64,000 nt of DNA from a virus. Where the stretch lies: positions 69,216 to 133,215 of the IMG/VR virus record IMGVR_UViG_3300045988_164457. One strand, 5' to 3'. This document shows, piece by piece, positions 18,767 through 64,000 of this stretch (its first letter is position 1; the number at the start of each line of letters is the position of its first letter). The translations under genes were made by a program, and so were the position numbers. The notes below the pieces were generated by a model that had not been told where the DNA came from, searched no databases, and saw only the letters and a program-made list of their open reading frames with translations.

Positions 18767-18804
18767 ATTTTCACCTCCCACCACAAAACATTTCTTTTAT
18801 TGTA

Positions 18805-19314
18805 TTATGCATTTTCCATCATAAATTTCTCTCGGTTAAGAATTTCACAAGCTTTTTCTGCCGCTTCTTCGGTGAAATAAACAACTAAATAACTATACGT
18901 ATAACACTGTACGTATATAAAACGCTTACTTACATTGTCATAAACCACAACCCATTTACATTCATCTTCATCCCCCCAATTAGGAAAATAATCAGGACAC
19001 AACAGCTCGTGAAGCTGCATTAATTTATTTTGAACTTTGAGAACGTTGTTACTATACCATTCGAGATGTTTTTGTGTTTTGTTATTTAATTGATATACAT
19101 TGTTGAAATCCATTCTCTGTTTTTCTACTAACGCATCTTCCAAATATGTATTACAAACACAGCCAAACGAATCAATGTAGTTATACGCTTCATAATGCTT
19201 AGGTATCCATATAGTTTCATTCTTTTCAGCAAGTTCAACCTTGAGCTTTTCAATTTCTTCCGTCATTGCTTTACAGTTGGCTTCAAGTTCTGCAATTCTT
19301 TCTTCTGGTGTCAT
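18805..19314 (-). CDS. hypothetical protein (N-terminal coiled coil)
   Basis: 169-aa ORF. Confidence 0.55.
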   Translation of the reverse strand: MTPEERIAELEANCKAMTEEIEKLKVELAEKNETIWIPKHYEAYNYIDSFGCVCNTYLEDALVEKQRMDFNNVYQLNNKTQKHLEWYSNNVLKVQNKLMQLHELLCPDYFPNWGDEDECKWVVVYDNVSKRFIYVQCYTYSYLVVYFTEEAAEKACEILNREKFMMENA

Positions 19315-19330
19315 TATTAATTACCTCCGT

Positions 19331-19678
19331 TTAAAATGAAATATTTTCAGGATTATAAATTTGCTGAAGTTTATAGAAAACATCACAGCTTTCTATTAAA
19401 GCTCTACTATAATCATTATGATAAGTAGTTAAAATCACCTTACAGCCATCATAAAAAGGTACAATTCGCTTACATTTCCAAAGTTTTTTATTGTCATCAT
19501 ATTTTATTTTAAACCAATGACCGTTTTTATCGAAAGGACTATTAAGTGTTCTTACAGCATATTCAATATCTTCGTCATCTTCATTATTTGTGTTGCTACT
19601 CATTTTAATTATTTTTAGGGTGTCATCTAATTCAAAATGAGTCCAATCACTATCAATATGAATATCAATCTCTATCAT
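19331..19678 (-). CDS. hypothetical protein
   Basis: 115-aa ORF. Confidence 0.55.
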   Translation of the reverse strand: MIEIDIHIDSDWTHFELDDTLKIIKMSSNTNNEDDEDIEYAVRTLNSPFDKNGHWFKIKYDDNKKLWKCKRIVPFYDGCKVILTTYHNDYSRALIESCDVFYKLQQIYNPENISF

Positions 19679-19690
19679 TTATTCACTTCC

Positions 19691-19852
19691 TTATTTATTA
19701 TTCTTTATTCCTTTCAAAAGTCTATATTGTCTTTCAGAGCAATAACCACCCTTATACAAACGTTCTAAATTAATTGTATTGCGTAATACTTTAGTCTGAA
19801 AAAGATACCACGGAACAAATGTTAAACGTTCTAAAAGTTGCTTTGTCTTCAT
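19691..19852 (-). CDS. hypothetical small protein (53 aa, below ORF-track cutoff)
   Basis: ATG preceded by AGGTGA. Fills an otherwise empty gap in the operon. Confidence 0.4.
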   Translation of the reverse strand: MKTKQLLERLTFVPWYLFQTKVLRNTINLERLYKGGYCSERQYRLLKGIKNNK

Positions 19853-19883
19853 TTATTATCACCTACACAAAATCAGAATTTTA

Positions 19884-20147
19884 TTAAGTTCTTTCCCATT
19901 CATCATATGTAAACTTACCAACAACATAAGCAGTAGGTTCATCTATACCAAAAGCATTGAAGATACTCTTCATCTTTTCCTTATCTGTTACATCTACTGC
20001 AAAACTATCACACAGACAGGTCGCAAGTGTTTTGCCACGCTTTGTATTTGTCTTGACTAAATCCCCAGCTTTGAGCGTTTTGTCTTCAGGAACAAGGAAT
20101 ACATATTTTGCTCCACAGTTTTCGTGTTTTACTATTACAACGTTCAT
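19884..20147 (-). CDS. hypothetical protein
   Basis: 87-aa ORF. Confidence 0.55.
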   Translation of the reverse strand: MNVVIVKHENCGAKYVFLVPEDKTLKAGDLVKTNTKRGKTLATCLCDSFAVDVTDKEKMKSIFNAFGIDEPTAYVVGKFTYDEWERT

Positions 20148-20203
20148 TATTCGTCACCTCTCAATAACCAATCTATACTTGTGGCTTCCGTATCCTTATA
20201 AGA

Positions 20204-20234
20204 ATTTCAACTCACACACCCGTGAGGGTGTGAC
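20204..20234 (-). CRISPR. solitary CRISPR-repeat-like unit C (type I-C-like architecture)
   Basis: Minus sense reads GTCACACCCTCACGGGTGTGTGAGTTGAAAT: a 7-bp stem, 4-nt loop and 11-nt tail TGAGTTGAAAT identical to units A and B. Confidence 0.6.
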
Positions 20235-20417
20235 TCTCAACTTTAGCATCAGGCGTTCCGCAAAAATAACAGATAAGACAACATGCTATTGAAAGAAGAA
20301 CACTTTGCAATTCACGCAAAAATGAAAGAGTGAGCGTATTGTATGAGGGTAAGCTTAACGAGATCAATATTTATATGGGTATTGACACAATATTGCATAG
20401 TATCGTCTTATCTGTTT

Positions 20418-20502
20418 TGGTACTCCCAGACGGATTCCAACCGTCACACCTTTCGGTACTTGATTTTGAGTCAAGCGTGTCTTGCAATTTCACCATAGGA
20501 GC
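20418..20502 (-). tRNA. tRNA-Leu (anticodon CAA), class II with long variable arm
   Basis: Hand-folded cloverleaf of 85 nt with encoded CCA. The T-loop is TTGGAAT and the D-loop lacks GG. Confidence 0.8.
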
Positions 20503-20661
20503 AGATGAGTGCCTGATTATCCTCACAGGCTTTTGGGCGGTTCATTCTAAAGTTTATCCTCATCCGCTAAAACCACAAAGTCGCTATCCGTCTCGTGAAC
20601 TACTCGCCTACTCTTGTTCTACAAACAACCCTAATGTTGCTGTTTTCTCCAATTTCAGATT

Positions 20662-20738
20662 TGGTCTCCCAAGTGGAACTCGAATCCACACTGTCAGAAT
20701 TTTAAGTTCTGTGTCTCTGCCGATTGGACTATTGGGAG
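20662..20738 (-). tRNA. tRNA with anticodon TAA but class I (short variable loop) structure
   Basis: Hand-folded, 77 nt: acceptor CTCCCAA/TTGGGAG, anticodon loop CTTAAAA, T-loop TTCGAGT, A73 and CCA encoded. Confidence 0.7.
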
Positions 20739-20948
20739 ATATTTAAACCACTTAGCAGGTTTTTCATCCGCTCAAAGTCGCTATTTGTTAATATGAAACC
20801 TCATATTCGATTTTTAGTGCCAACAGAATACGACTTGTTATTACTGTTCAGACACTTAATACATATTTAATGAAATATCAGCGCCAACTGATACGACAAA
20901 ATATGTATTAGGTTGGAGACACCTTGACGGTATCAATCCTCGCACCAA

Positions 20949-21022
20949 TGGTACACCATATCGGTTCTGCCCCGATGTTTAACGATTAAAAGTCGTTTGT
21001 TCTACTATTGAACTAATGGTGC
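20949..21022 (-). tRNA. tRNA-Lys (anticodon TTT), non-canonical D and T loops
   Basis: Hand-folded, 74 nt with CCA encoded. The T-loop is GGCAGAA (no TTC) and the D-loop is AATAGTA (no GG). Confidence 0.55.
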
Positions 21023-21093
21023 TTATTCCTGACTTTTTATACGGAAGTCAGTGAAACCGTTTATGGAGGTTATACCAGAATGAAACTAACATT

Positions 21094-21167
21094 TGGTTGG
21101 GACACTCTGATTTGAACAGAGGATCACGGAGTCAAATTCCGATGCCTTACCACTTGGCTATGCCCCA
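21094..21167 (-). tRNA. tRNA-Gln (anticodon TTG)
   Basis: Hand-folded, 74 nt: D-arm GCCAAGTGGTAAGGC, T-loop TTCAAAT, CCA encoded. Confidence 0.85.
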
Positions 21168-21221
21168 ATATTTATTTTAAAGCCTAATTTTATCATTTAC
21201 TTATCATTTGATTACATATAT

Positions 21222-25122: not shown

Positions 25123-25965
25123 TCAAATCTTATATCCAGATAATCTTTCAAATTCTTCCAATCCAAGGTTGAGGTCAAGCCATTTCTGACGAAGCTTCAA
25201 AGGGTTTACTGTCATATAATATTTTAATGTTGTATTAAGGTCGGCGTGAGCTACGGCTATAGAAGCAACTGCTGCATTTCTATCGTCCTCCCAGCCTCGT
25301 GATATAAACTCGCAAAAAGTTTTCCGCATAGCATGAGACGAATAATGCCCCATGATGCCAAGCTTTTGAGTTATTGCTTTAAGCCATCTGCCGATTGATG
25401 ATACAGTCATAGGGGCAATTTCCCTCTCACTTCCTTTTTCATCGTACCTCTCCCCTGTTGTGATTACATCTGCGATTTCTCCGTATTCATCATATATAAA
25501 TTCATCGAAATATGTTCTACGGTTTCCATCACCTCTAAAAAGATAATTTTCAGAAGTTAATCCCTTACGATCAATAAGGTACTTGAGAACAGTCTTTACT
25601 GCTTTATTAAAATACACAGGTCTTGCTTTATCTGTCTTCTGTTCAGCGATATACTTAATATCAAGAATGTTTCCTTTCTCATCTGTCACATCTTTCACTC
25701 TGAATGAAAGAATGTCGCCACAACGATAGCCTGTATTTATTCCGAAAACAAACATTGCTGCTTTATGGTATGCTTTTTCTTCAAAACACTGACGGATAAC
25801 AGCGTTGATATCGTTCTCGTACATAAATGCGTCCGCAGAATGTTTGGTGGGTGCTTCTACATCGGTAACAACAACTTGTCTATGTGCTACTTTACGCCTA
25901 TTTTTTCGAGATGATATATCAATAATATTGGCTGTTCCGTTGTTATAGGCTATCGCTGCGTTCAT
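25123..25965 (-). CDS. tyrosine recombinase (Xer/phage-integrase catalytic domain)
   Basis: GYRCGD (Arg I), SSHAMRKTF (HxxR) and HADLNTTLKYY (His/Tyr). Confidence 0.75.
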   Translation of the reverse strand: MNAAIAYNNGTANIIDISSRKNRRKVAHRQVVVTDVEAPTKHSADAFMYENDINAVIRQCFEEKAYHKAAMFVFGINTGYRCGDILSFRVKDVTDEKGNILDIKYIAEQKTDKARPVYFNKAVKTVLKYLIDRKGLTSENYLFRGDGNRRTYFDEFIYDEYGEIADVITTGERYDEKGSEREIAPMTVSSIGRWLKAITQKLGIMGHYSSHAMRKTFCEFISRGWEDDRNAAVASIAVAHADLNTTLKYYMTVNPLKLRQKWLDLNLGLEEFERLSGYKI

Positions 25966-26783: not shown

Positions 26784-27521
26784 TCATTCCTCCATTATTG
26801 TATCTGATTTATTTATAATCGCTTCTTTAAAAGAAGTAATTGCTGTAACAACCTCATCGAGAATAATAGTTATATCATTTAGAGCTTCGTCTCTTGTATA
26901 ACGTTTATCCGTTACAGTTTCTACCATACCAGTATAATCATCAAGTGCTTCCAAATAGTTGCTTGTCTGTGCTTGAAACATACTTGTTATCATAGCAAAA
27001 GTCAACTGTGTTTCCGTATCGTCCTTTAACCGTTTGGCACGTTCTTCAAGAGATATAGCATTAGTAGTTACAACAGTAGCATTACGCCTTTTATATAATT
27101 CAGTTGAGGATATATCACCATTAAAATACAGATGCTTGTCCTCATCTTTACAGTAGTTTAAGGCACTTATGACCTTACTCGCTTGTGCAATAGATTTTTC
27201 AGCAATGACCTTATTTACACAATTACGATTAATTTCACTAGCTATAAGCCTATCATAGCAAAAAAGTATGGTTTTACAATCTTTAATTGCCCGATCAGGC
27301 AGAAGTAATGATCGGCTCACGTCCCGATAAACAGTCTGTATCTTTTTGTTCTTCGTATCCAATGTCGCTTGCTTGTCCGCAACTTCCACCAGCTGACGGC
27401 ACAGCTCCAACGTCATTGGTTTCTTCGTTAAGAGAGGTTTCAGTTTCATTATCTGTGCAGTTACTGCTTTCTGCTCGTTCTTCCTCATAAGCAATGCTTC
27501 CTTTTTCTGTGCTGTACTCAT
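26784..27521 (-). CDS. hypothetical protein (start uncertain)
   Basis: The ORF is open from 27578. Every candidate start overlaps the 3' end of the upstream DUF262 gene by more than 100 nt. Confidence 0.45.
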   Translation of the reverse strand: MSTAQKKEALLMRKNEQKAVTAQIMKLKPLLTKKPMTLELCRQLVEVADKQATLDTKNKKIQTVYRDVSRSLLLPDRAIKDCKTILFCYDRLIASEINRNCVNKVIAEKSIAQASKVISALNYCKDEDKHLYFNGDISSTELYKRRNATVVTTNAISLEERAKRLKDDTETQLTFAMITSMFQAQTSNYLEALDDYTGMVETVTDKRYTRDEALNDITIILDEVVTAITSFKEAIINKSDTIMEE

Positions 27522-28680
27522 CCTCATCATCCCCATTATCATTTTCAGCTGTATCAAGATATTCGTCAACAAAATCATAAATTATATTTTGTCTTTCTTC
27601 TACACATTCGGAAGAATAAAAAGAACTGCCACCGTCTTTCGCATTGCACTCATCAACAAATCTCTTATAACAATCACTCTGCCAAAATGCACGAAGAAAA
27701 TCAATAAACGATTTTCCATTCTTGTTGTTTGCATTAAATGCTTTGAAATTATCAAGACCTAAAATGTAATGAGGGATCGTAATAGAGTCAAATCTTTCAA
27801 TTTCTTCACCTGTAAGATTATTTTTGTTTTCAGCAAGTTCATTTACAAGATTGAAAAGCTTATGTTTTGTATGGTCATTAACATATTCATCAAAATCATT
27901 ATCAGCAAACTTAGTCATAGCAGAAGAACCGAGATTTGTATAGTTATAACGTGTCATCATCATAAAGATTCTGATTACACAACAAAGAATACTATCGTTC
28001 TTTGCCTTACAGCCCTTACTGTCGTTCCACAGTTCACTGTCACAAATGGGCTGTACATTACGCATATTTTCTGAACCAAGAAGGAAACGCATCTTCTGAT
28101 AAGAATTAGGCGTTTTACCGTTATTCATACAGAACACAATATCATCGAGTTCTTCGTCCGTAAAGCCTTCGTGTATATATGTTGTAAGCCGATATTTATC
28201 TAAGAAAACCTTAATGGCATCTGGAAGTTGAGAATATTTCTTATTGGCAATTTCGATTTCTATCTTCATTTCATTACCTTCCTTGTCTATACCCCTGCAC
28301 GCAACGGACTTTGCTCTTTTATCAAGAGCAAATTTATCATGGTAAAAATCCACAAGGGCGGTTGTTCTCTGTAAGCCGTCCAGCAATGACGTTACAGCAT
28401 AACTTTTACTTTCAGCACGTCCTTTGGCAAGAGCTATGCTTCCAATTGGTCTATTGTGGAGAGCTGCTTCGATAAGTTTAGATTTTTGCTTCCTTGTCCA
28501 CTGGTCATCAGTACGCTGGATAAGCGGATCACGGCAAATTTCTCCGTTATCTACTTCTTCCACATACATTTTTACAGAATAAGGTATCATCCGTACATCG
28601 GATTCTTCACGCACACGCTCTGCAATGGTATAGGTAGTTCCATCGATTTCTATAACATTGAAATCTTTTTTCTTTGCCAT
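27295..28680 (-). CDS. DUF262 (ParB-fold) protein with acidic C-terminal tail
   Basis: DPLIQRTDDQWTRKQKSKLIEA and LLDGLQRTTAL. Confidence 0.65.
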   Translation of the reverse strand: MAKKKDFNVIEIDGTTYTIAERVREESDVRMIPYSVKMYVEEVDNGEICRDPLIQRTDDQWTRKQKSKLIEAALHNRPIGSIALAKGRAESKSYAVTSLLDGLQRTTALVDFYHDKFALDKRAKSVACRGIDKEGNEMKIEIEIANKKYSQLPDAIKVFLDKYRLTTYIHEGFTDEELDDIVFCMNNGKTPNSYQKMRFLLGSENMRNVQPICDSELWNDSKGCKAKNDSILCCVIRIFMMMTRYNYTNLGSSAMTKFADNDFDEYVNDHTKHKLFNLVNELAENKNNLTGEEIERFDSITIPHYILGLDNFKAFNANNKNGKSFIDFLRAFWQSDCYKRFVDECNAKDGGSSFYSSECVEERQNIIYDFVDEYLDTAENDNGDDEDEYSTEKGSIAYEEERAESSNCTDNETETSLNEETNDVGAVPSAGGSCGQASDIGYEEQKDTDCLSGREPIITSA

Positions 28681-30182: not shown

Positions 30183-30274
30183 TTTAATTGCCTCCTATTT
30201 CCGACACAATTAACAAAATATACAATAAAAATAGTGCGGTCTGACAATTTTTTCTATCAAACCGCACTATTTTC

Positions 30275-30303
30275 TTGATTTTTCGTAGATAATCTGATAC
30301 AAT
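30275..30303 (+). promoter_or_regulatory. promoter upstream of CRISPR-like unit A
   Basis: TTGATT-17-TACAAT. Confidence 0.5.
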
Positions 30304-30400
30304 CAAAAGTAATTGGAAGACTCATACACCCCTTTTCTACGTATTACTTACAGCAGTTTGACTACCTACAGAGGAGGGGATTTGTATAAAGGTTTTGATT

Positions 30401-30433
30401 GTCGCACCCCATGTGGGGCGTGTGAGTTGAAAT
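30401..30433 (+). CRISPR. solitary CRISPR-repeat-like unit A (type I-C-like architecture)
   Basis: GTCGCACCCCATGTGGGGCGTGTGAGTTGAAAT. No partner repeat within 200 bp on either side. Confidence 0.65.
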
Positions 30434-30594
30434 TTGATTATGTATCGGATTACCTACTATATCTATTATACTGCAATGCAGATAATAAATCAAGTCGATT
30501 TAGTGCGATTTTCAAATTTTATATATAACATGGGATAATACATTACATTGGCAACTATCCTTTCTATTTTTATTACTATAAATGAGGTGTTCTT

Positions 30595-38132: not shown

Positions 38133-38258
38133 GTAAGCAAGTAATATATCTGATTTACCACATTGAATATTACATTTTGGTTCTACTAATTTAAACATAG
38201 TATGATAAGTATGTACAAAGTACAAATTAGTGACTATTATTTTACGGAGGAAAAAATT

Positions 38259-41200
38259 ATGGGACAATTTAATATGCAATTTACATTAGAGGAGCATTTT
38301 AAAAACTTAAGCGAATCCTATGAACAAGTTACTGATGTATACTGCCTTTGGAACTTATTAAAAAAAGACATTTCTGAAAAGCTTATAAATACATATCGTA
38401 ATTACCCTTATTTCAGTAAACATGATGCCTCACATTCAAAAACAATAATAACTAATATTGAACTTTTCTTAGGTAAGGAAAGGATACAAGCACTTTCAGC
38501 AACAGATACAATTATGTTGCTTATTTGTGCATATATGCACGATTACGGTATGGCATTAGATTTAGAAGAAATATTCAGCATTCTTAATGATTCAGAAGAT
38601 AAATTTAAAAATTTTTTAAAAGACAAAAAAAATGAAAATATTTACGCTAAACGAATATTAGACTATTATAACAAAGAAAAGTCCGATGGTAATTTAAAAG
38701 AATTATATTATTCAATATTAATTATGCTTCAAGATTTAAACAGACCATATCATTGGGTAGGTGTCGAAAAAATACGACATGATTACGAATGCTTGTTTGC
38801 AAAAAGAATTAAAGTGAGATTCGTCACAGCAATAATTGATATTTGTCAGATGCACGGTAAAAATGTGGAGGCAATTTCCACGTTAAGCCGTCGATCAAAT
38901 GGTATGTTTGCCGATGTTTTTCATCCTAGATTTATTGCTGCTATGATTCGTTTAGGTGATTTATTAGATTTAGACAATCATAGATTTAGTCAAGAATTTG
39001 AACGTGCTATGCAAAAAAACGATAATTTAATACCAGAGTTATCAAAAATTCATTATTTAAAGCATGAATCTATAACTAACTTTTTAATAACTCCAGAATA
39101 TATCGATATAGAAGCAATATGTAATGGAAATGATGCTTTAGCATTATCTGTCGCAAGAGAAATATATGATTGGTTACACTGGTTAGAAAATGACTGTATA
39201 TATTTAAAACAAGAATGGGATATGATTGCACAAAAAGATTTTGGAACTTCGCCTAAAATAAGAAATAAAAAAATTTTAGTAAACGGTATGGAATATCACC
39301 ATTTTGTATATAACTTAAGAATGGAACTTCCAAGTGATAGAATTTTTGAACTTCTTATCGGAAGTAATGTTTATGAGAATAAATATGTAGCATTTCGAGA
39401 AATTATTCAAAACGCCATTGATGCAACCTTATTGCAAATATGGGAAAATTTTTATAATAATTTACCACCTAATACTTTAAAAAGCTCATATTCATCAAAG
39501 TTAGCAGAGTATTGTTTATCATCAAATTTTGATAATGAATATAAAATACAAGTAAATGTAATTGAAAACATTAAAGAAAATGCTGTTTACGTTGAAGTAA
39601 TCGATAATGGAATTGGAATAGGTGATGAGGATTTACAATACATGTGTAGAATAGGAGAAAATAATATATGCAATCCTCAACGTCATAAATTCATAGACCA
39701 GATGCCAGATTGGTTTATTCCATCAGGCGTGTTTGGTATTGGATTACAAAGTGCCTTTCAATTAACAAATGAAATAGAATTTTTCACCAAAAAAGCTAAC
39801 AGAACTCCACGACATATACGCTTCTCTTCTTATTCTAGCAACCAAGGAAAAATTGAGGTTTCAAAATGCCCAAATTCATATTTAGAACAGTTTAATAAAT
39901 TATCGACACAAGGCACTTTAGTAAGATTAAAAATTAATCCTAAATTTTTTAGAAAGAACAAAGATTTTGATTATTTTGATTTAGCGTTTGAAAACGAAAA
40001 GCTTAACAGTCATGTCATATTTGTTGAAATCATTTATCAATTAAAAAAATATATAGAAACACAAAAAATTAATTATATGCCCATATTTTTTTCGAATTAT
40101 ATTATAGAAGATACAACTAATATTTCAAAGAAAGAAAAAATGAAACGTATAAGTAAAGATGAAAGCTTTTATTATGTTATGAATATGACTGAAACTGGTC
40201 AAAAAATAAAGTTGACCAAAAAGAATGATTTTATAATTTTAAATTATTGGAACAATGATAAAAATATTTTTTTAGAGGTGCAAATTCCTAAATGCAACAT
40301 TTTGAACCCCTCAGATGCAAAGAAAATTCTATTTTCATTACAATTTCTTGATAATGCTTTTTTAATTAAATACAAGCATAATATTATAAATAATTATGAG
40401 CAATTATTTGGATATCGTTCTAGTCAAACTGATACTCAAGTATATGATTTAAACAATAATATAATAAGATGTTTAGTTAATATTTTTGATAAGAACCCCG
40501 AAAATTATTTAAACATTGACAGAAATGTTTTAAAATATGGGAAAATAACTTATTCTGATATAGCAACTTGTGAGGAAGAAATGTTTTCCTTATTTTGCAG
40601 TAAGGTTTCCGAAAAAAAACTATTGGACGGTAAAAAGGCTTTTATTTCAAAAAATGATTATCTCCCGATTTTATCTATTTTATTTTTTCGATTTGCACGA
40701 AAGAAAGCTCTCAAATCATTTATTTTAAAATATGGCAAAGATTTACAAAATTATGAGATATCACTTAATAATGATGGTATATCTTATAATATACAATTAC
40801 AAAAAATTTTAGGTATAGAAAATAACAATTTTTTTGTTTATGATATTGTTGAAAGCAAATATGAATCTTTTTTTAATGTTGAAGATGTTAAAAATTTTGA
40901 GGAATCTCAAATAAAGCCAATTTATGTATCAGATCTATATAATTATTTCCCACGTCACTTTTTTATACCTGTTAAAATTACTATTCAAAAATACAATTCA
41001 AAATTATGTATAATTTATGAATGCCAAATAAGAATGAATACAAATCAAAATAATGAACAGTGTTTTATTGACATTGATGAAAATTATTGGAAACTAGATT
41101 GCATTAGTTTTAGCAATGCTAATAAAAGTTCCTCAAATAAAACTGTTTTAAAGCCAATATCTAAATATAAATGTTTAATTACAAAGTCATTTCCAAAACC

Positions 41201-41516
41201 ATTTTATAAAAGTACTATGTTTAGAAACGTGTTAGATCAAAACATTTCTACGTATATTATTTTCCCTTTAGAACAAAATTTAACACATCAATTATATAAA
41301 TGTAAAGAATGCAACTCAGAAAATGATTTAAAAACCATCTTAAAAGAAATAAACAATAGTATGGTCAAAGATCCTTACTTTAAAAAGTGTTTGAATTATG
41401 TTAGAAAGAATTCTTGTCAACCAAATACAACTGATGAACTTATTATAAATGATTACAAACAATTAATTCTTGATATCGGAAACGAATTTTTTTGTTTAAA
41501 TAACAAAAAGCAATAA
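38259..41516 (+). CDS. 1085-aa HD-domain plus GHKL (Hsp90/MORC/sacsin-like Bergerat) ATPase protein with ~500-aa uncharacterised C-terminal region
   Basis: HD: KHDASHSK, YMHDYGM, RLGDLLDLD. GHKL: N-box FREIIQNAIDA, G1 VIDNGIGIGDEDL, G2 SGVFGIGLQSAF. Start at the ATG 8 nt after GGAGG; the ORF track starts at 38202. Confidence 0.75.
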   Translation: MGQFNMQFTLEEHFKNLSESYEQVTDVYCLWNLLKKDISEKLINTYRNYPYFSKHDASHSKTIITNIELFLGKERIQALSATDTIMLLICAYMHDYGMALDLEEIFSILNDSEDKFKNFLKDKKNENIYAKRILDYYNKEKSDGNLKELYYSILIMLQDLNRPYHWVGVEKIRHDYECLFAKRIKVRFVTAIIDICQMHGKNVEAISTLSRRSNGMFADVFHPRFIAAMIRLGDLLDLDNHRFSQEFERAMQKNDNLIPELSKIHYLKHESITNFLITPEYIDIEAICNGNDALALSVAREIYDWLHWLENDCIYLKQEWDMIAQKDFGTSPKIRNKKILVNGMEYHHFVYNLRMELPSDRIFELLIGSNVYENKYVAFREIIQNAIDATLLQIWENFYNNLPPNTLKSSYSSKLAEYCLSSNFDNEYKIQVNVIENIKENAVYVEVIDNGIGIGDEDLQYMCRIGENNICNPQRHKFIDQMPDWFIPSGVFGIGLQSAFQLTNEIEFFTKKANRTPRHIRFSSYSSNQGKIEVSKCPNSYLEQFNKLSTQGTLVRLKINPKFFRKNKDFDYFDLAFENEKLNSHVIFVEIIYQLKKYIETQKINYMPIFFSNYIIEDTTNISKKEKMKRISKDESFYYVMNMTETGQKIKLTKKNDFIILNYWNNDKNIFLEVQIPKCNILNPSDAKKILFSLQFLDNAFLIKYKHNIINNYEQLFGYRSSQTDTQVYDLNNNIIRCLVNIFDKNPENYLNIDRNVLKYGKITYSDIATCEEEMFSLFCSKVSEKKLLDGKKAFISKNDYLPILSILFFRFARKKALKSFILKYGKDLQNYEISLNNDGISYNIQLQKILGIENNNFFVYDIVESKYESFFNVEDVKNFEESQIKPIYVSDLYNYFPRHFFIPVKITIQKYNSKLCIIYECQIRMNTNQNNEQCFIDIDENYWKLDCISFSNANKSSSNKTVLKPISKYKCLITKSFPKPFYKSTMFRNVLDQNISTYIIFPLEQNLTHQLYKCKECNSENDLKTILKEINNSMVKDPYFKKCLNYVRKNSCQPNTTDELIINDYKQLILDIGNEFFCLNNKKQ

Positions 41517-42929: not shown

Positions 42930-43943
42930 TTATTTTCCGAGGAACTCATTGACTGATTTTTCTATAAGTTCTCTTCTTGCCTTTATACTTGAAGGGCTGG
43001 TTGTATGCTCACGGACAAGCGATGCGTATGCTTCAGGCATATTTCCAAAGAACTTTTCCACCCACTTTGCAAACTGCTCGGGTGTATCGAATTTTTCCAG
43101 GTATGGCAGGTATCCGATGAAATGTGTGGGCTTGAACATCAGTTTGATCACGTCTGAATTTTCCTTCTCTATTGACATGTTCTTATATGTTTCAAACATA
43201 AAGTCGTATGATGTTTTAAGCTGTTCCCTTTCGTCTGTGTCGATGCTCAGTACCTTCATGACCTCGTTGACGTGGGCTGGGGTAAGATTTGGCGATTCCT
43301 CAAAGAGAGCTATCCACGATCTAATTATAATTTCCTGCTGTTTGAGTGCTTTTCTTTCCGTTGAGGTAAGCATTACGTTGAACAGCTCGTGGTTAGTAAG
43401 TTCCTTGATATCTTCCATTCCCTGCTTATAGGAACGTGCGATATCGAATTTGCTCATGGATTTTCCGTTATTAAGTCTGCGGAAAATAAGTGATTCCTGC
43501 TCGGGAGTTGCATTTTCCATGATAGAAATATTCAAAGTTGTATCTAATATCCAGCTTTGGAGTTTGGGAGGAAGCTGCTTGAAACGCTTGCCCTGAAGCT
43601 TGACGGGTTCTCCGTTAAGGTATATATCAGGCTCGTTTGTAAGTCCTGTAAGGGCAAAATCTCCGTCTATATAATGGATTATGGTTGTTCCTCTTTGCTT
43701 TCCGTCAAAGATTTTCAGGAGAGTATTTCCGTTGGGGAGTTCCCTTACACCTGCTATAAACGGGGACTGTGCATCGGTAATCTTCAGTAAGATCGAATGA
43801 ATATAGAGGGATTTTCGGGTATTGCTCCACACCTCTCCACGCTGCATATCGTCCGTGAAGTCAACCTCGGGAATATCCTCATAATACATATTATAAAGGG
43901 ATTTAATGCTGATACCTTTTTGGTACATCTTAAATTTATCCAT
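42930..43943 (-). CDS. DUF262 (ParB-fold) protein, stand-alone cassette
   Basis: DFTDDMQRGEVWS and IFDGKQRGTTII. Start at the ATG after AGGAGG; the ORF track starts at 43985. Confidence 0.65.
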   Translation of the reverse strand: MDKFKMYQKGISIKSLYNMYYEDIPEVDFTDDMQRGEVWSNTRKSLYIHSILLKITDAQSPFIAGVRELPNGNTLLKIFDGKQRGTTIIHYIDGDFALTGLTNEPDIYLNGEPVKLQGKRFKQLPPKLQSWILDTTLNISIMENATPEQESLIFRRLNNGKSMSKFDIARSYKQGMEDIKELTNHELFNVMLTSTERKALKQQEIIIRSWIALFEESPNLTPAHVNEVMKVLSIDTDEREQLKTSYDFMFETYKNMSIEKENSDVIKLMFKPTHFIGYLPYLEKFDTPEQFAKWVEKFFGNMPEAYASLVREHTTSPSSIKARRELIEKSVNEFLGK

Positions 43944-44004
43944 AAAAATCCTCCTGACAAAATTAAAAGTAATGATAATTCGCAATCATCATTTCGATGA
44001 TTTA

Positions 44005-44553: not shown

Positions 44554-44790
44554 CTATTCCAGTTCCTCAATCATCTTCTTGACACGCTCAATTTCTTCCG
44601 ATGTATGAGGTGTTCCACCTACGTTCATATCAATATACCATTGTAAAACTTCCTTTTCGGTTTTCAGATCATTGACATTAAACCTTAATGTATGTCTCAT
44701 TCTTGGCTTATCTTCAAAGTCTTTATAATAACGTCCAAAGATAGGAATTTCATTATTAGCAAACCTCAGACAAGCTGTAATTCGCTGCAA
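44554..44790 (-). pseudogene. 5'-truncated DUF262/ParB-like gene remnant
   Basis: The reading frame opens just after a stop next to the 3x10-bp repeat and reads ...YVCVDGLQRITACLRF (the DGxQR core) with no ATG or RBS. The usual N-terminal half is missing. Confidence 0.4.
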
Positions 44791-44854
44791 TCCGTCAACG
44801 CAGACATATTCATTATATGCTCCCTCGGGAACGTGAACATTCCAATCAGGCTTA

Positions 44855-44884
44855 CTTCATACGGCTTCATACGGCTTCATACGG
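44855..44884. repeat. 3 x 10-bp perfect tandem repeat (cttcatacgg)
   Basis: Read directly from the sequence. Intergenic, immediately upstream of the truncated gene. Confidence 0.9.
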
Positions 44885-44963
44885 TATGTAAAAACCGTAA
44901 TCATTCCTTGTGGTGGTTATTCGGCAAACCACTTAATGGACTGTTTATAGCTGCCCGGACAGC

Positions 44964-45158
44964 TTAATTGATGTTTAACGTAATAATATCGTTATTATCA
45001 TAAACATTGTCCATAGAAGAAACTTCCTCATCCAGAAGTTCATCGGGTATTTCACTTCCAGATCCGTCAAATATAATTTCCTCCTTTTCGTTATCGTAAA
45101 TATTAAAATGCTGTGAGTCACCGTCAATAAGTAATTCCATAAAATCCTGTATAGTCAT
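44964..45158 (-). CDS. 64-aa highly acidic protein
   Basis: D/E-rich throughout (DELLDEEVSSMDNVYDNND). GGAGG RBS. Driven by the promoter fused to CRISPR-like unit B. Confidence 0.6.
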   Translation of the reverse strand: MTIQDFMELLIDGDSQHFNIYDNEKEEIIFDGSGSEIPDELLDEEVSSMDNVYDNNDIITLNIN

Positions 45159-45195
45159 AATATTTTCCTCCTGTTAAATGTACTTTTTTATATTT

Positions 45196-45224
45196 AATCT
45201 ATCATAATATCCGTGTGATTTCAA
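45196..45224 (-). promoter_or_regulatory. promoter whose -35 (TTGAAA) is the 3' end of CRISPR-like unit B
   Basis: Reverse complement reads TTGAAA-17-TAGATT. Confidence 0.5.
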
Positions 45225-45250
45225 CTCACACACCCCACACGAGGTGCGAC
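45218..45250 (-). CRISPR. solitary CRISPR-repeat-like unit B (type I-C-like architecture)
   Basis: Minus sense reads GTCGCACCTCGTGTGGGGTGTGTGAGTTGAAAT, beginning 12 nt after a -10 box. Confidence 0.7.
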
Positions 45251-45262
45251 CCGATTACCCCT

Positions 45263-45291
45263 ATTCTATCATAATATCCATGCGAAGTCAA
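45263..45291 (-). promoter_or_regulatory. promoter driving CRISPR-like unit B
   Basis: Reverse complement reads TTGACT-17-TAGAAT. Confidence 0.6.
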
Positions 45292-45309
45292 TCGATTTTT
45301 ATTGCTTTG

Positions 45310-45513
45310 CTAATGAATTGTTACGCCCTCAAAATACTTTTTCAGCCTCAGAGCTTCATAATTAGCCCGACACTGTTTTTGGCGTTCAAATTCTTCCGAC
45401 AGACTGAATGTGTTATCATACTTGATAACTTCCGCTGCCTGCTGTGCTTCTCCCCTATTGCCATTATATAAGCTTGTAAGAATTTCCGTAAAGCTTGTGA
45501 ATGTTGTGTTCAT
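45310..45513 (-). CDS. hypothetical small protein
   Basis: 67-aa ORF with an AGAGGA RBS. Confidence 0.5.
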   Translation of the reverse strand: MNTTFTSFTEILTSLYNGNRGEAQQAAEVIKYDNTFSLSEEFERQKQCRANYEALRLKKYFEGVTIH

Positions 45514-45528
45514 TATGGTTGTTCCTCT

Positions 45529-45714
45529 TCAATTATTTTCCATAGCCTGGCTTAACAGACTAAATGCGTTATATGGATTTTCCAATGGATCGGCATCAAG
45601 TCTATTATGTATATTGACCTCAAAGAAGCTTCCGAGGATATACAATAATATTATAGTGCTCAAAAGGTTTATAATATTTATTTTCCGTTTTGTTATTCTT
45701 GCTTTTGCTTTCAT
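45529..45714 (-). CDS. small membrane protein
   Basis: Basic N-terminus followed by a TM segment LLSTIILLYILGSFF. GGAGG RBS. Confidence 0.5.
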   Translation of the reverse strand: MKAKARITKRKINIINLLSTIILLYILGSFFEVNIHNRLDADPLENPYNAFSLLSQAMENN

Positions 45715-47653: not shown

Positions 47654-49434
47654 TGCACTATAATCATAGCAATATAGTATATTTTAATGCAATAAGTGTA
47701 TTATGTATTATAGAAGCACCGGAGCTAATAGTCAAATATAATTAGAACGTGTAAATTATATTTGTCAATAGGCATAATATATAAATATAATAATAGTACA
47801 TTGTATATATTGCATAACCAAACCGAAAGTGAATAAAACCGCCGTGACTGCTGCTATAATGCGTTATACGGCATTTTGTTTATAGTGGTATAATTACCCT
47901 AACAGGTGTATTAAAATAGCGTGTGCGTGATTTATTGTTATTTGATATAATTTTATTGTAATTTGATATTTTATTATTGATATTCAATAATCGACGTTTA
48001 TAGAGTGTTAATAATTATGATGTGTTTTAGATATATTTATGTTGTAATATTGCATAGTTTTAAGGTGTGAAATTTGGCTATTTTGCAAAATGTGAGAGTG
48101 CCTGAGCTGAAGCGGTTAAGTGACAGAGTGGTTATATACCAATGTTGTATATTTTAATGTAGTAAAGTTTAGTTGGTTAAAGTATAGTAATACAGTAGGA
48201 ATATAAGGATACCCGAAGAGCATATTTGAAGATAATTATTTGTGTACCGTTTAGGTATAGTTATATATGGTTATGTGGTGTAATTTATAGTAATGTGGTA
48301 TAGTTTAATGCTGTTATGGATTAGCGATTAGGAAAATAGGCTTATGTATTATGATATATTATGATGTATTTTTTAAAATATCTCTTGTATGCTTTGATTT
48401 TCTTTTGTTTTCTCTTGTTTTCTTTATTATGCTTTGATTTGGTTTTAATTTATTTAACAGTGTTAAATAAATTAACAATGTTAACGAACCGCTAATAATG
48501 ACTATTGGTCATTATTTTTAATGCTGCCAACAACAATATTTATATAACAAATTCAAGAAATGTTAATAAAATTAGCTCTAAAATTCATTAAGAAATGTTA
48601 GTAGAAATATTTCTAAAATATGTCTGTCTATGTTGCTTTTGGGGGAAAAATAACATAGAATCGGCAGTACAACCGGGAGGGTACGTTTACATTTAAAAGT
48701 TTGTTAACATTTGCTTATAGTCCTATAGTAGTTCCACTCAACTCACACGTCTAAAAATCCAAATTGACACTCACCCATAATTTCTCTCATAATCCAAAAA
48801 ACAAAAAAATACTCCAAAAATATTCCAAAAATCATTCGATGCTACCTTTCGATAAACTTCCCTATTTATCCCACTTCCAGACCAACAAAAATAGTTCTAA
48901 AACACATCTATCTCAAGAACTCAAAATCCATATCCACACTGCACTTTCAGACAAACTACAGAACACTCTACACCCACTTTACCATCTCAAACAATAAATT
49001 ACCCTATCCACGCAAACAGCTCTCAAATCTAATCACAGAGCCTAATGTAAGTATCTCAAAAATAACATTTCAATACTATATATCTATTCAGAATCAACTT
49101 AAAGATATAATTCATTCACTTCAAATCACACGTCAAACATTTCAAAAACCAACATAAAATCTAAATCGCTCAAATACTAATAAAATCTATACTTTCTCCG
49201 AATACTACAAAAAACAATCAAAAGTATCAGAAATTAAACCTGTATTTAATGTATCAGAAGTATCTCAAATCAAGTAAACATCATAAATTCATAGAAATAA
49301 ATCGAAGATCATAAAAATTACAGATTGTTTTTTGTGTTCTTATGAAAAATTTATAAACTTTTATAAGCTACAGGTCATTGTATGCACCATATTTAAGATA
49401 TTTAAGTAAAAGATAAAATTCAATCAAAAAGCAC

Positions 49435-62697: not shown

Positions 62698-62771
62698 GGC
62701 GAGTTGGTCTAATGGTAGGATTAGGGTCTCATAAACCTTAGATTTACGTTCAAGTCGTAAGCTCGCACCCA
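62698..62771 (+). tRNA. tRNA with anticodon CAT (Met, fMet or Ile2 identity unresolved)
   Basis: Hand-folded, 74 nt: D-arm GTCTAATGGTAGGAT, anticodon loop CTCATAA, T-loop TTCAAGT, CCA encoded. Position 1-72 is a G-A mismatch. Confidence 0.75.
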
Positions 62772-64000
62772 ATAGTAAAAATCACTGTCAATGAAGGTTT
62801 TTGTAATAACCATCGTGAGTGTACGATTATATTATGGTCAAATTTAATCAGATGCCTCAAATTATGATGATTATAGTTTTTGGCGTTATACATAGCTATG
62901 AGCATTTGTATTAACAATAGTTGACAAAGTGTTTGACCAACACTATTCGTCTGATGACAAGGATAAGAGTAAATGGATATGATGCCTTGTAAAAACTTTA
63001 TTCTAACGTGTGCAATAAACCTATTAAGATTATCCATTCGAGATAGTACGAATAGAATAGACATACTGAAGTAATTGGATTCTGATTTATCAGAATGGGC
63101 GTTTATAAGTATGTTATATGTAAACACAGATTTAATACGTTTGTGTTTACACCAAGTAGGCAGTTCTCGATAATCTGCTGTTAGTAGCTCTGTCTGCGGA
63201 CAACTGAGGTCAAAGTAGATATGCGTATCAAAATGACTAAATCAAATATGAAGTGAAACCAACACTCTTTAAATAAATGGTAAAAACGGAAAATATAAAA
63301 CAATAATAAACTTGTTTGTAAGAAAGATGCTTGCATTTTCCCATTTTCACTACCGTTTGTGAAGTTTATTCGTCCAGTCGAGGGTGGAATGACGTTAAAC
63401 TCTACCCTACCATAATGGTTCTGAGAAAATAATTATCAGAATTATGTTTACAATAACCCCGATGAAAACGGTTGTCAACCTTTCGGGACACGATTATAAT
63501 GAATGTTTATGGAATGATAGTTTTATAAGCAAGTCAACTTTGTATTATGAAAGTATGCAAGATGAGAGGAAAATCCTCAAATTTAGTTGTGGTGCTAAGA
63601 GTTATCGCTTCAAAAAGCACAGAACTTATCGCTGTGGTAATAGACGCTTCTGTGAAGAATAAGCCTTATACTAACGAGTGGAATCGCAAAGTCACTAAGG
63701 TAATCCAAAAGAACACAGTCTGTTTTGATGCTTGAGAAATCAAGCTATAAGGTAAGTCGCTGGTAAAAGTAGCCATATGACAGTATTGGGAACAAATCTT
63801 TTTTTTGTAATGATTTTAAAGAAAATTTCAAATGCTGAATGACTGGTGAAATTTGTGTATAACCAATTACACGCAAGCTTTGAGAGTAATCTACGGTAAG
63901 AAGCTATAGGGTCGCTACCTATAGTTCAGCCTTATCGTCTTGGTGGCTGAATATTGAAGAAGATAATGGAGGTACGGCGAAGGTCGTATTGCAGGCATAA
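62772..64000 (+). ncRNA. candidate large structured non-coding RNA (truncated by window end)
   Basis: More than 1.2 kb without an RBS-supported ORF, visibly more GC-rich than its surroundings. Many local hairpins, e.g. 63079-63096, 63120-63150, 63904-63924 and 63925-63951. Directly downstream of a tRNA. Confidence 0.35.

What the first reader, a model, noticed from the sequence alone, without database searches (positions are those of the whole stretch)
45196..45291. Promoter-driven solitary type I-C-like CRISPR repeat wired into a duplicated promoter (RNA anti-CRISPR candidate)
Seen: minus strand 45250..45218 reads GTCGCACCTCGTGTGGGGTGTGTGAGTTGAAAT. That is a 5' GTCGC, an 8-bp GC-rich stem with a 4-nt loop, and an 11-nt tail ending in TTGAAAT. 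Known: this is the architecture of type I-C repeats, for example GTCGCACTCTACATGAGTGCGTGGATTGAAAT, where Cas5c cuts at the hairpin base and leaves an 11-nt handle. Seen: there is no second repeat, spacer array or cas gene in the window. The unit starts 12 nt after the -10 of a near-consensus promoter (TTGACT-17-TAGAAT), so a very short RNA consisting of little more than the repeat is predicted. A 15-bp direct duplication TCTATCATAATATCC (45198-45212 and 45265-45279) brackets it. The repeat's own TTGAAA lies exactly 17 nt from the duplicated -10 (TAGATT), creating a second promoter for the acidic 64-aa gene. Two further copies (30401-30433 and 20204-20234) keep the 11-nt tail identical while the stem varies with largely pair-preserving changes, and the flanks are unrelated. 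Inference: selection acts on the repeat RNA itself, as expected for phage solitary repeat units or RNA anti-CRISPRs that load Cas proteins into dead-end complexes.
Basis: partly seen in the sequence, partly recalled or inferred. Interest (0 to 1): 0.85.

Follow-up and report, generated by a model that had tools for sequence, protein, structure and literature searches.

The report
Solitary type I-C CRISPR repeats in phage
An uncultured human-gut phage carries three isolated copies of the CRISPR repeat used by type I-C immune systems of gut Clostridia, which are most likely RNA decoys that disarm that immunity, a trick already described in other phages.

Summary
Three 31-33-nt units (45218-45250 -, 30401-30433 +, 20204-20234 -) share the tail GTGTGAGTTGAAAT and fold as type I-C repeats.

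They are genuine I-C repeats. The unit at 20204 is identical to the repeat of a 32-repeat array beside cas3-cas5c-cas8c-cas7-cas4-cas1-cas2 in Huintestinicola butyrica. The unit at 45218 is 1 nt, and the unit at 30401 is 2 nt, from a repeat found in 10- to 25-repeat arrays. Of 120 host loci with this repeat family, 62 have I-C cas genes alongside.

The window is the replication and accessory region of a large gut Firmicutes phage. It has no cas genes and no partner repeats, so the units are truly solitary.

Sibling phages preserve the empty site. The flagged unit arrived in a 67-nt insertion that duplicated the whole 30-nt promoter, and the repeat's TTGAAA tail serves as the new -35.

Best explanation: RNA anti-CRISPR (Racr) candidates, a known class with a validated I-C example. 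Function is inferred, not shown.

A crRNA-like regulatory guide is not excluded for the 30401 unit.

Novelty: new member of a known kind. Interest: moderate.

The parts
45218..45250 (-). c1: solitary type I-C repeat GTCGCACCTCGTGTGGGGTGTGTGAGTTGAAAT (8-bp stem, 4-nt loop, 11-nt tail)
   Evidence: It is 1 nt from the repeat GTCGCACCCCGTGTGGGGTGTGTGAGTTGAAAT of arrays L118 (10 copies), L196 (25) and L203 (17).
45263..45291 (-). P1: promoter-like site TTGACT-17-TAGAAT with a TG before the -10; its -10 ends 12 nt before c1
   Evidence: It is the left copy of the 30-nt promoter duplication.
45196..45224 (-). P2: promoter-like site TTGAAA-17-TAGATT; its -35 is the tail of c1; it drives orf64
   Evidence: In sibling phages the single promoter at this position is TTGACT-17-TAGATT.
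45219..45285 (-). 67-nt insertion relative to sibling phages: a diverged copy of the promoter spacer and -10, then AGGGGTAATCGG, then c1
   Evidence: Alignment A1 against the empty sites L210, L211 and L212. The exact boundaries are ambiguous because of the duplication.
44964..45158 (-). orf64: 64-aa very acidic protein (pI 4.05) starting 59 nt downstream of c1; function unknown; anti-CRISPR candidate by position only
   Evidence: No Pfam, PHROG or PDB sequence hit. The AlphaFold2 model (pLDDT 82) has no PDB fold match and matches only uncharacterised phage proteins.
30401..30433 (+). c2: solitary type I-C repeat GTCGCACCCCATGTGGGGCGTGTGAGTTGAAAT with an A.C stem mismatch; the copy conserved across related phages
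   Evidence: The same unit in the same context occurs in more than 13 related contigs. It is 2 nt from the L118-type array repeat.
30275..30303 (+). Promoter-like site TTGATT-17-TACAAT (TG before the -10) that would transcribe c2 in sense, about 90 nt upstream
30465..30493 (-). Opposing promoter-like site TTGATT-17-TATAAT that would transcribe c2 in antisense, towards the hairpin terminator at 30227-30274 and orf74
30464..30487 (+). Hairpin TATTATACTGCAATGCAGATAATA starting 30 nt after c2; a possible 3' end structure if c2 makes a crRNA-like RNA
   Evidence: Compared with the I-C crRNA-like RNA architecture in bioRxiv 10.1101/2024.12.27.630466.
20204..20234 (-). c3: solitary type I-C repeat GTCACACCCTCACGGGTGTGTGAGTTGAAAT, identical to the Huintestinicola butyrica I-C array repeat
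   Evidence: It is also identical to the repeat of an orphan array carried by another phage (L040/L052).
20338..20367 (-). Promoter-like site TTGATC-18-TACAAT about 100 nt upstream of c3, downstream of the tRNA cluster (20418-21167, minus)
19884..20147 (-). orf87: small gene starting 56 nt downstream of c3; function unknown
   Evidence: Its homologues in L213 and L215 lack c3 upstream.

Best explanation
The three units are phage-borne solitary repeat units copied from the CRISPR repeats of type I-C systems of gut Oscillospiraceae/Ruminococcaceae-like Clostridia. They most likely act as RNA anti-CRISPRs (Racrs).

Proposed steps:
1. The phage transcribes each unit in sense. c1 is transcribed from a promoter directly upstream. 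c2 and c3 are transcribed from promoter-like sites about 90-100 nt upstream, and c3 possibly also with the tRNA cluster.
2. The RNA folds into the I-C hairpin with its 11-nt 3' tail.
3. Host Cas5c recognises the hairpin base and tail and cuts there.
4. There is no spacer and no second repeat. The products, a hairpin fragment and a handle-tagged phage mRNA, therefore tie up Cas5c, and probably Cas7 and Cas8c, in complexes that carry no anti-phage guide. They compete with real crRNAs.
5. Carrying two repeat subtypes (c3 versus c1/c2) would widen the range of I-C systems covered.

What is shown: the units are I-C repeats, they are solitary, they lie between genes in a phage, c1 has a promoter-like site directly upstream, and c1 arose by a recent insertion.

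What is inferred: transcription, Cas5c binding and cleavage, and inhibition. These rest on analogy with RacrIF1 and RacrIC1 (PMC10651486) and on Cas5c biochemistry (PMC8524198).
For: Repeat identity
- c3 equals the repeat of the H. butyrica array (29+3 copies). That array sits next to cas3-cas5c-cas8c-cas7-cas4-cas1c-cas2, with NCBIfam hits to Cas5c 5e-45, Cas8c 3e-108, Csd2 6e-98 and Cas1c 8e-115.
- 62 of 120 host loci with this repeat family have I-C cas genes within the fetched 8-kb block.
- c1 is 1 nt, and c2 is 2 nt, from the repeat of arrays L118, L196 and L203.

Solitary state and phage setting
- No partner repeat and no cas gene are in the window.
- The window carries phage replication genes, an integrase-family recombinase and a methyltransferase.
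- All three units lie between genes and point the same way as the gene downstream.
- c1 is 12 nt behind a 10/12 promoter match with a TG before the -10.
- c1 and c3 fold canonically, alone and (c3) in context.

Gain of the units
- Siblings L210-L212 have the c1 site empty. Homologues of orf87 in L213 and L215 lack c3. c2 is present in all 8 relatives found through the neighbouring protein. SRUs therefore accumulated in this lineage.
- The filled c1 allele recurs in at least 15 metagenome contigs.

Exposure to I-C immunity
- A rival phage carries an orphan array with the c3-type repeat. One of its spacers matches this window at 31/34 positions (1162-1195).

Precedent
- Viral SRUs behind promoters are a described class, and a type I-C Racr was validated. 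The paper's supplement lists 46 viral I-C SRUs with the same GTGAGTTGAAAT tail.
Against: - There is no expression, binding or inhibition data.
- The true host of this phage is unknown. The window is 31.7% GC, against 40-60% in the ten array-bearing loci checked.
- None of the 1,787 host and viral spacers sampled matches strongly, apart from the one from a phage-borne array.
- c2, the most conserved copy, has a stem mismatch that shifts the predicted hairpin. It also lies between face-to-face promoters, and the better consensus match (10/12) would transcribe it in antisense.
- c1's promoter leaves only about 5 nt upstream of the hairpin. In RacrIF1 the inhibitory part was the RNA upstream of the cut, so the I-F mechanism cannot simply be transferred.
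- No known anti-CRISPR or Aca protein was recognised nearby.
- Conservation of c2 does not exceed that of its flanks.
Confidence: 0.6

Rival explanations
1. crRNA-like regulatory guide (viral Cracr / crlRNA). The repeat supplies the 11-nt 5' handle. The phage sequence downstream acts as a pseudo-spacer. It directs host I-C Cascade to repress a promoter (cas genes, a CRISPR-guarded toxin or another defence system) rather than merely soaking up Cas proteins.
For: - In type I-C systems a single repeat-like unit followed by a 3' hairpin is enough to make a 48-50-nt guide with an 11-nt handle (bioRxiv 10.1101/2024.12.27.630466).
- Viral versions that target I-C loci are reported (bioRxiv 10.1101/2024.10.29.618823).
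- c2 is followed 30 nt later by a conserved 10-bp hairpin (30464-30487). That would give a product of about 52-54 nt.
Against: - No second repeat-like element exists near any unit.
- c1 and c3 lack a convincing 3' hairpin. The RNA downstream of c1 is unusually unstructured (z +1.7).
- No PAM-flanked, seed-matching target was found for any of the three downstream sequences in 764 kb of host I-C loci. Best hits were 10/12 to 11/12 seed positions, as expected by chance.
- The profile search found no repeat-like unit in the H. butyrica cas locus besides its array repeats, so there is no sign of a host crRNA-like RNA for the phage to mimic.
Confidence: 0.15
2. Non-functional scars. The units are remnants of recombination with host or phage CRISPR arrays, or phage-borne arrays that collapsed to one repeat. 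They hitch-hike without a role.
For: - Related gut phages do carry orphan arrays and two-repeat mini-arrays of the same repeat family (L040/L052, L008, L020, L035).
- c1 and c3 are recent and lineage-specific.
- c2 carries a stem-breaking change.
- Conservation of c2 is no stronger than that of its flanks.
Against: - There were three independent acquisitions from two repeat subtypes in one lineage.
- All three are intergenic and co-oriented with downstream genes.
- The c1 insertion kept both a promoter for the repeat and a rebuilt promoter for orf64.
- c2 persists in more than 13 contigs, even where the neighbouring gene is only 47% identical.
- Published work shows that such units are usually active (PMC10651486).
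Confidence: 0.12
3. DNA-level recombination handle. The repeat copy serves as an attP-like or homology site that lets the phage integrate into, or exchange with, host CRISPR arrays, as described for Streptococcus pyogenes prophages.
For: - A tyrosine recombinase is encoded at 25123-25965.
- Integration of prophages into CRISPR repeats is documented (bioRxiv 10.1101/2020.10.09.333658).
- The orf64 family occurs on contigs up to 0.5 Mb, so an integrated form is possible.
Against: - The recombinase is 4.4-4.9 kb from the nearest units, not adjacent.
- There are three different units, while one att site would suffice.
- c1 is embedded in a duplicated promoter, which fits expression rather than recombination.
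- In every contig examined the units are flanked by phage DNA on both sides.
Confidence: 0.05

Closest known systems
Viral solitary repeat units / RNA anti-CRISPRs (Racrs), in particular RacrIC1 (Camara-Wilpert et al., Nature 2023, PMC10651486)
   Same: - A single CRISPR-repeat mimic sits in an intergenic region of a phage, without cas genes or partner repeats.
- A promoter lies directly upstream of c1.
- The unit is linked in an operon-like way to a small gene of unknown function.
- The subtype is I-C. The paper's supplement lists 46 viral SRUs with the same GTGAGTTGAAAT tail typed as I-C.
   Different: - There are three units of two repeat subtypes in one genome.
- c1 lies upstream of its partner gene, with almost no 5' leader, whereas RacrIC1 lies 11 nt downstream of acrIC5.
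- No recognisable anti-CRISPR protein is nearby.
- c2 has a stem mismatch and an ambiguous transcription direction.
- Activity is untested.
Type I-C crRNA-like regulatory RNAs of hosts (crlRNAs, 'CRISIS' regulation) and their viral mimics (Cracrs) (bioRxiv 10.1101/2024.12.27.630466 and 10.1101/2024.10.29.618823)
   Same: - A single I-C repeat-like unit gives an 11-nt handle.
- c2 is followed by a hairpin at about the distance seen at the 3' end of such RNAs.
   Different: - No target promoter with a PAM and seed match was found.
- c1 and c3 lack the 3' hairpin.
- The units are near-perfect repeats rather than degenerate pseudo-repeats.
Phage-borne orphan CRISPR arrays and mini-arrays that use host Cas proteins
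   Same: The repeat family is the same, and the gut-phage setting is the same. For example, the array of at least 18 repeats on IMGVR_UViG_3300045988_158063 uses a repeat identical to c3.
   Different: Here there is no spacer and no second repeat, so no canonical crRNA can be made.
CRISPR-repeat-like attP of Streptococcus pyogenes prophages (bioRxiv 10.1101/2020.10.09.333658)
   Same: A phage carries a copy of a host CRISPR repeat and encodes a tyrosine recombinase.
   Different: The units are kilobases from the recombinase, there are three of them, and one has its own promoter.

Membership tests
Type I-C CRISPR repeat | Architecture: 2-nt 5' overhang, 7-8-bp GC-rich stem, 4-5-nt loop, 11-nt 3' tail (the future 5' handle) ending in TTGAAAT/C | tested here: met
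   c1 and c3 fold exactly this way. c2 deviates through one A.C mismatch. The definition is taken from PMC8524198.
Type I-C CRISPR repeat | The same sequence is the repeat of arrays lying beside cas3-cas5c-cas8c-cas7-cas4-cas1-cas2 | tested here: met
   c3 is identical to the H. butyrica repeat, next to a complete I-C operon. 62 of 120 family loci have I-C cas genes adjacent. For c1 and c2 the match is only near: 1 nt and 2 nt from the L118/L196/L203 repeat. No I-C cas genes were found in the fetched 8-kb block holding the L118 array.
Solitary repeat unit / Racr candidate (SRUFinder criteria, PMC10651486) | Located on a virus or plasmid | tested here: met
   The window carries phage replication genes and an integrase-family recombinase. 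It is about 95% identical to IMG/VR viral contigs of 69-135 kb.
Solitary repeat unit / Racr candidate (SRUFinder criteria, PMC10651486) | Matches a known repeat but is not associated with other full or partial repeats or with cas genes | tested here: met
   An nhmmer profile search with filters off, and tblastn with I-C Cas proteins, find nothing further in the window.
Solitary repeat unit / Racr candidate (SRUFinder criteria, PMC10651486) | Lies in an intergenic region | tested here: met
   All three lie between credible genes. Only short ORFs that look spurious overlap them.
Solitary repeat unit / Racr candidate (SRUFinder criteria, PMC10651486) | The host carries a CRISPR-Cas system of the same subtype | tested here: inconclusive
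   Many gut Clostridia carry matching I-C systems. The host of this phage is not identified: GC content differs and only weak or indirect spacer links were found.
Racr (functional definition) | Expressed as a small RNA from its own promoter | not testable with these tools
   Only consensus promoter matches are available. No terminator follows c1.
Racr (functional definition) | Bound and processed by the cognate Cas endoribonuclease, and inhibits interference | not testable with these tools
   This needs Cas5c cleavage and interference assays.
Cracr / crRNA-like regulatory RNA | Repeat-like unit followed by a pseudo-spacer and a second repeat-like unit or a 3' hairpin | tested here: inconclusive
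   No second repeat-like unit exists. c2 has a hairpin 30 nt downstream, while c1 and c3 do not.
Cracr / crRNA-like regulatory RNA | The pseudo-spacer has at least 9 PAM-proximal matches to a cas, toxin or defence promoter | tested here: not met
   No such site was found in 764 kb of fetched host I-C loci. Whole host genomes were not searched.
CRISPR array / mini-array | At least two repeats separated by a spacer of about 33-36 nt | tested here: not met
   The nearest other copy is more than 10 kb away.
Repeat-like attP for integration into CRISPR arrays | The repeat copy adjoins the integrase, and the prophage is flanked by array repeats | tested here: not met
   The recombinase at 25123-25965 is 4.4-4.9 kb from c2 and c3. 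Prophage junctions could not be examined.

The most novel reading that the evidence does not exclude
c1 may be a one-repeat 'half array' used in competition between phages.

- After Cas5c cleavage, the orf64 transcript would start with the 11-nt I-C handle. It would continue with 37 nt that match perfectly the SRU-less allele of the same locus in sibling phages (L210, L212).
- The phage's own two copies would be spared. The right copy is preceded by the repeat tail instead of a PAM. The left copy differs at would-be seed positions 2 and 5.
- If I-C Cascade can load such a handle-only RNA, this phage would turn the host's immunity against close relatives while also soaking up Cas proteins.

A related untested idea is that the repeat in the 5' UTR makes expression of orf64 or orf87 respond to the presence of Cas5c.

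Caveats:
- The 5' flank of the target is CTT, not the canonical TTC.
- There is no 3' hairpin.
- The perfect match is an automatic consequence of the promoter duplication.
Probability: 0.05. Interest if true: 0.8.

Novelty: new member of a known kind. Interest (0 to 1): 0.4.

Why it matters
If active, these units would add type I-C RNA anti-CRISPRs aimed at abundant human-gut Clostridia (the Oscillospiraceae/Ruminococcaceae group), where CRISPR-phage conflict is hard to study.

The case offers three practical handles:
- An exact repeat match to a cultured strain, Huintestinicola butyrica Sanger_06, that has a complete I-C operon. Cognate Cas5c and Cascade can therefore be cloned and tested.
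- Natural filled and empty alleles. They show how such a gene is born: a 67-nt insertion that duplicates a promoter and reuses the repeat's TTGAAA tail as a -35.
- One genome carrying three variants: one canonical, one with a wobble pair, one with a bulge. Together they form a ready-made structure-function series.

It does not change the concept, which was published in 2019-2023.

Tried and rejected
- Megablast of 40-52 kb against GenBank phages and PLSDB plasmids found no match.
- Rfam has no CRISPR-DR family that recognises these repeats. At the gathering threshold only tRNAs and ROOL RNA were found. An E-value search around c1 gave only noise.
- The weak tail-like match at 49118-49131 has no hairpin and no GTCGC start. 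It is chance.
- A 17/18 match of the sequence downstream of c2 in a Ruminococcus contig (L112) is not preceded by a repeat. It was judged chance.
- I looked for the source array of c1 through its 12-nt left flank AGGGGTAATCGG, and likewise through the flanks of c2 and c3. None of the fetched arrays contains them.
- Anti-CRISPR identity of the neighbours: Pfam, PHROGs and PDB sequence searches of orf64, orf67, orf61, orf87 and others found nothing informative. The orf64 AlphaFold2 model (pLDDT 82) has no PDB fold match (best E 3.2). It matches only uncharacterised small phage proteins.
- There is no shared protein family downstream of I-C SRUs in other viral contigs.
- The idea that the repeat's TTGAAA is generally reused as a -35 fails. 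Among about 20 other viral SRU loci none has as good a -10 at the right spacing, so this is specific to c1.
- Host assignment through orf64-bearing contigs failed because the records were metagenomic and carried no organism names.
- The L118 array has a recombinase-like gene, not cas2, on its leader side.
- Two papers on Cas5d processing could not be opened, so PMC8524198 was used instead.
Full report
**1. The observation**

| Unit | Position | Sequence |
|---|---|---|
| c1 | 45250..45218, minus | GTCGCACCTCGTGTGGGGTGTGTGAGTTGAAAT |
| c2 | 30401-30433, plus | GTCGCACCCCATGTGGGGCGTGTGAGTTGAAAT |
| c3 | 20234..20204, minus | GTCACACCCTCACGGGTGTGTGAGTTGAAAT |

- The shared 14-nt tail occurs exactly three times.
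- A profile built from 49 host repeat variants finds only these three copies, even with filters off and E<=100.
- c1 folds as an 8-bp stem, 4-nt loop and 11-nt tail. c3 folds as a 7-bp stem, 4-nt loop and 11-nt tail.
- c2 has an A.C mismatch. Its best fold therefore shifts to 9 bp with a bulged C and an 8-nt tail.
- The two promoter-like sites around c1 are confirmed, each with a TG before the -10.
- No terminator-like site lies in 44800-45700. The predicted 'very short RNA' therefore does not follow from the sequence.

**2. They are real type I-C repeats**

Viral scan. A scan of viral contigs for the tail plus the GTCRC head returned 75 loci, some with arrays and many with single copies.

Genome scan. 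Nearly all were gut or rumen Clostridia (Ruminococcus, Ruminiclostridium, Oscillospiraceae, Monoglobus and others), with arrays of up to about 60 repeats.

c3 match. c3 is identical to the repeat of the array in Huintestinicola butyrica Sanger_06 (29 copies in L088 and 3 in L193). Directly upstream of that array lie cas3, cas5c, cas8c, cas7/csd2, cas4, cas1c and cas2, confirmed by NCBIfam (Cas5c 5e-45, Cas8c 3e-108, Csd2 6e-98, Cas1c 8e-115).

Family-wide check. Using those Cas proteins as tblastn queries, 62 of the 120 host loci have I-C cas genes inside the fetched 8-kb block.

c1 and c2 matches.
- c1 is 1 nt, and c2 is 2 nt, from GTCGCACCCCGTGTGGGGTGTGTGAGTTGAAAT. That is the repeat of a 10-repeat array in a Ruminococcaceae genome (L118) and of 25- and 17-repeat arrays in metagenomes (L196, L203).
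- In the metagenome scan, which allowed all eight c1/c2-like variants, only that one variant formed arrays. Exact c2 occurred only as a single copy in relatives of this phage, and exact c1 did not occur.

So c3 comes from one repeat subtype, and c1 and c2 are independent derivatives of another. The 'pair-preserving' differences between copies reflect this ancestry, not covariation inside the phage.

**3. Setting**

- The window is 31.7% GC.
- It encodes a PolIII-alpha-type polymerase, a DnaB-like helicase, a primase, a RecD-like helicase, ligases, a tyrosine recombinase, a methyltransferase and several DUF262/GmrSD-N-like proteins.
- The polymerase is 38-44% identical to those of an unannotated human faecal phage record, Geobacillus virus E3 and large Bacillus phages.
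- The window is about 95% identical, in mosaic blocks, to several IMG/VR contigs of 69-135 kb.
- It has no I-C cas homologue.
- All three units lie between genes and point the same way as the next gene. c1 is 59 nt before orf64, c3 is 56 nt before orf87, and c2 is 161 nt before a 480-aa gene.
- c3 lies 184 nt downstream of a cluster of four tRNA genes.

**4. How the copies arose**

c1. Searching viral contigs with orf64 found sibling phages with the c1 site empty. L210, L211 and L212 have a single promoter, TTGACT-TCACACGGATATTATGA-TAGATT, and no repeat.
- The alignment shows a 67-nt insertion in this window and in contig 168236.
- The insertion holds a diverged copy of the promoter spacer and -10, then 12 nt of unknown origin (AGGGGTAATCGG), then the 33-nt repeat.
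- The repeat's tail TTGAAAT takes the place of the -35 TTGACTT of the second promoter copy.
- The filled allele is identical in at least 15 metagenome contigs.

c3. It is likewise lineage-specific. Homologues of orf87 in L213 and L215 have other upstream sequences, and relative L058 lacks the whole 18.8-21.2 kb block.

c2. It is the old copy.
- It is present in all eight relatives found through the neighbouring protein, even where that protein is only 47% identical, and in six more metagenome contigs.
- Two contigs carry a T19 variant that restores the canonical stem.
- Variation in c2 (one site in 33) is no lower than in its flanks, so conservation alone does not prove selection.

**5. Details that complicate c2**

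- c2 sits at the inner edge of a pair of imperfect inverted arms (30285-30307 and 30433-30457). Each arm contains a -10-like element pointing inwards.
- The sense promoter-like site (30275-30303) scores 9/12 with a TG before the -10. An opposing site (30493..30465) scores 10/12. It would transcribe c2 in antisense, towards a strong hairpin terminator (30227-30274) and orf74.
- The minus-strand RNA across this region folds far better than shuffles (z -8.1), because of the inverted arms and the terminator. A DNA-level inverted repeat would give the same signal.
- On the sense strand a conserved 10-bp hairpin starts 30 nt after c2.

**6. What it most likely does**

Viral solitary repeat units behind promoters were described in 2019. 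In 2023 they were shown to act as RNA anti-CRISPRs that divert Cas proteins into aberrant complexes. A type I-C example (RacrIC1) restored infection by a targeted phage (PMC10651486). That paper's supplementary table lists 46 viral SRUs with the same GTGAGTTGAAAT tail, typed I-C.

[quoted passage not shown] The best-supported model is therefore this:
- The units are transcribed in sense.
- The RNAs are bound, and probably cut, by host Cas5c.
- The products compete with real crRNAs for Cas5c, Cas7 and Cas8c.

One piece of evidence suggests this phage family meets such systems. Another gut phage carries an orphan array of at least 18 repeats with the c3-type repeat, and no cas genes in the roughly 10-11 kb of flanking DNA fetched on each side of the array. 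One of its spacers matches this window at 1162-1195 in 31 of 34 positions, with 5' flank CTC.

Everything after 'transcribed' is inference.

**7. Rivals**

(a) A crRNA-like regulatory guide.
- In I-C systems one repeat-like unit plus a 3' hairpin is enough to make a working guide, and viral mimics exist.
- c2 has such a hairpin.
- Against this, c1 and c3 do not have one. No second repeat-like unit exists. No PAM-flanked seed match was found in 764 kb of host I-C loci.

(b) Neutral scars of recombination with arrays. This is possible. It fits poorly with three independent gains, the shared orientation, and the insertion that preserved both promoters.

(c) An attachment site for integration into arrays. 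The recombinase is 4-5 kb away, there are three units, and one has its own promoter.

**8. The neighbours**

orf64 is very acidic (pI 4.05) and its family is confined to close relatives. The AlphaFold2 model (pLDDT 82) matches no solved structure, only uncharacterised small phage proteins. orf67, orf61 and orf87 have no informative hits. Calling any of them an anti-CRISPR protein would rest on position alone.

**9. A curiosity**

Because of the duplication, the 37 nt after c1 match the SRU-less allele of sibling phages perfectly. The phage's own left copy differs at positions 2 and 5 of that stretch. A handle-tagged RNA could in principle guide Cascade against siblings. The flank is CTT rather than TTC, there is no 3' hairpin, and the match is an automatic by-product of the duplication. 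I rate this at about 5%.

**10. Verdict**

The units are type I-C solitary repeat units in a phage and good RNA anti-CRISPR candidates. Transcript size, selection on the RNA, and activity are not established.
- This is a new member of a known kind. Interest is moderate. Its value lies in the cultured host with an exact repeat match and in the preserved empty and filled alleles.

Noticed in passing
window 63439-64000 (+): A full-length ROOL RNA (Rfam RF03087, 313 bits, E 4e-71) runs to the end of the window. A tRNA-Met lies just upstream at 62698-62771.
   Followed up: no
window 20418-21167 (-): A cluster of four tRNA genes: Leu-CAA, Leu-TAA, one found by Rfam only at 20952-21022, and Gln-TTG. 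It lies directly upstream of c3. The whole block 18789-21168 is missing from relative L058.
   Followed up: partly
window 30227-30493: The c2 region has face-to-face promoter-like sites inside 23/25-nt inverted arms (30285-30307 and 30433-30457). A 17-20-bp bidirectional terminator hairpin lies at 30227-30274. The minus-strand RNA 30458..30220 folds with z = -8.1. It looks like a regulatory switch region, conserved even where the flanking genes differ.
   Followed up: partly
window 1162-1195 (-), within the 65-aa ORF 1149-1346: A protospacer matched in 31 of 34 positions by a spacer of a phage-borne orphan I-C array (L052:185-218). Its 5' flank is CTC rather than TTC.
   Followed up: partly
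L040:10907-11327 and L052:25-702 (IMGVR_UViG_3300045988_158063, 146 kb): A phage-borne CRISPR array of at least 18 repeats identical to c3 spans the contig ends. It is flanked on one side by an integrase, tail-fibre genes and a lysin. On the other side are a Band-7 protein, dUTPase, NrdG and NrdD. No cas genes lie in the roughly 10-11 kb of flanking DNA fetched on each side.
   Followed up: partly
L008, L020, L035 (viral contigs): Other gut phages carry two-repeat mini-arrays of the same I-C repeat family: a degenerate repeat, a spacer of about 34 nt, then an intact repeat. Many more carry single repeats 20-45 nt upstream of small genes.
   Followed up: no
window 42930-43985 (-), 27295-28680 (-), 44554-44790 (-): Several DUF262/GmrSD-N-like (ParB-type nuclease) genes and fragments are scattered through the accessory region. 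One lies about 1 kb downstream of the c1-orf64 locus.
   Followed up: no
window 38202-41516 (+): A 1104-aa ORF with no PHROG match lies in the lowest-GC stretch of the window (24-28% GC).
   Followed up: no
L108 (CAVGWF010000067.1): A contig labelled Escherichia coli carries a 20-repeat array of this Clostridia-type I-C repeat, with I-C cas genes alongside. This is probably a binning or contamination error in the public record.
   Followed up: no
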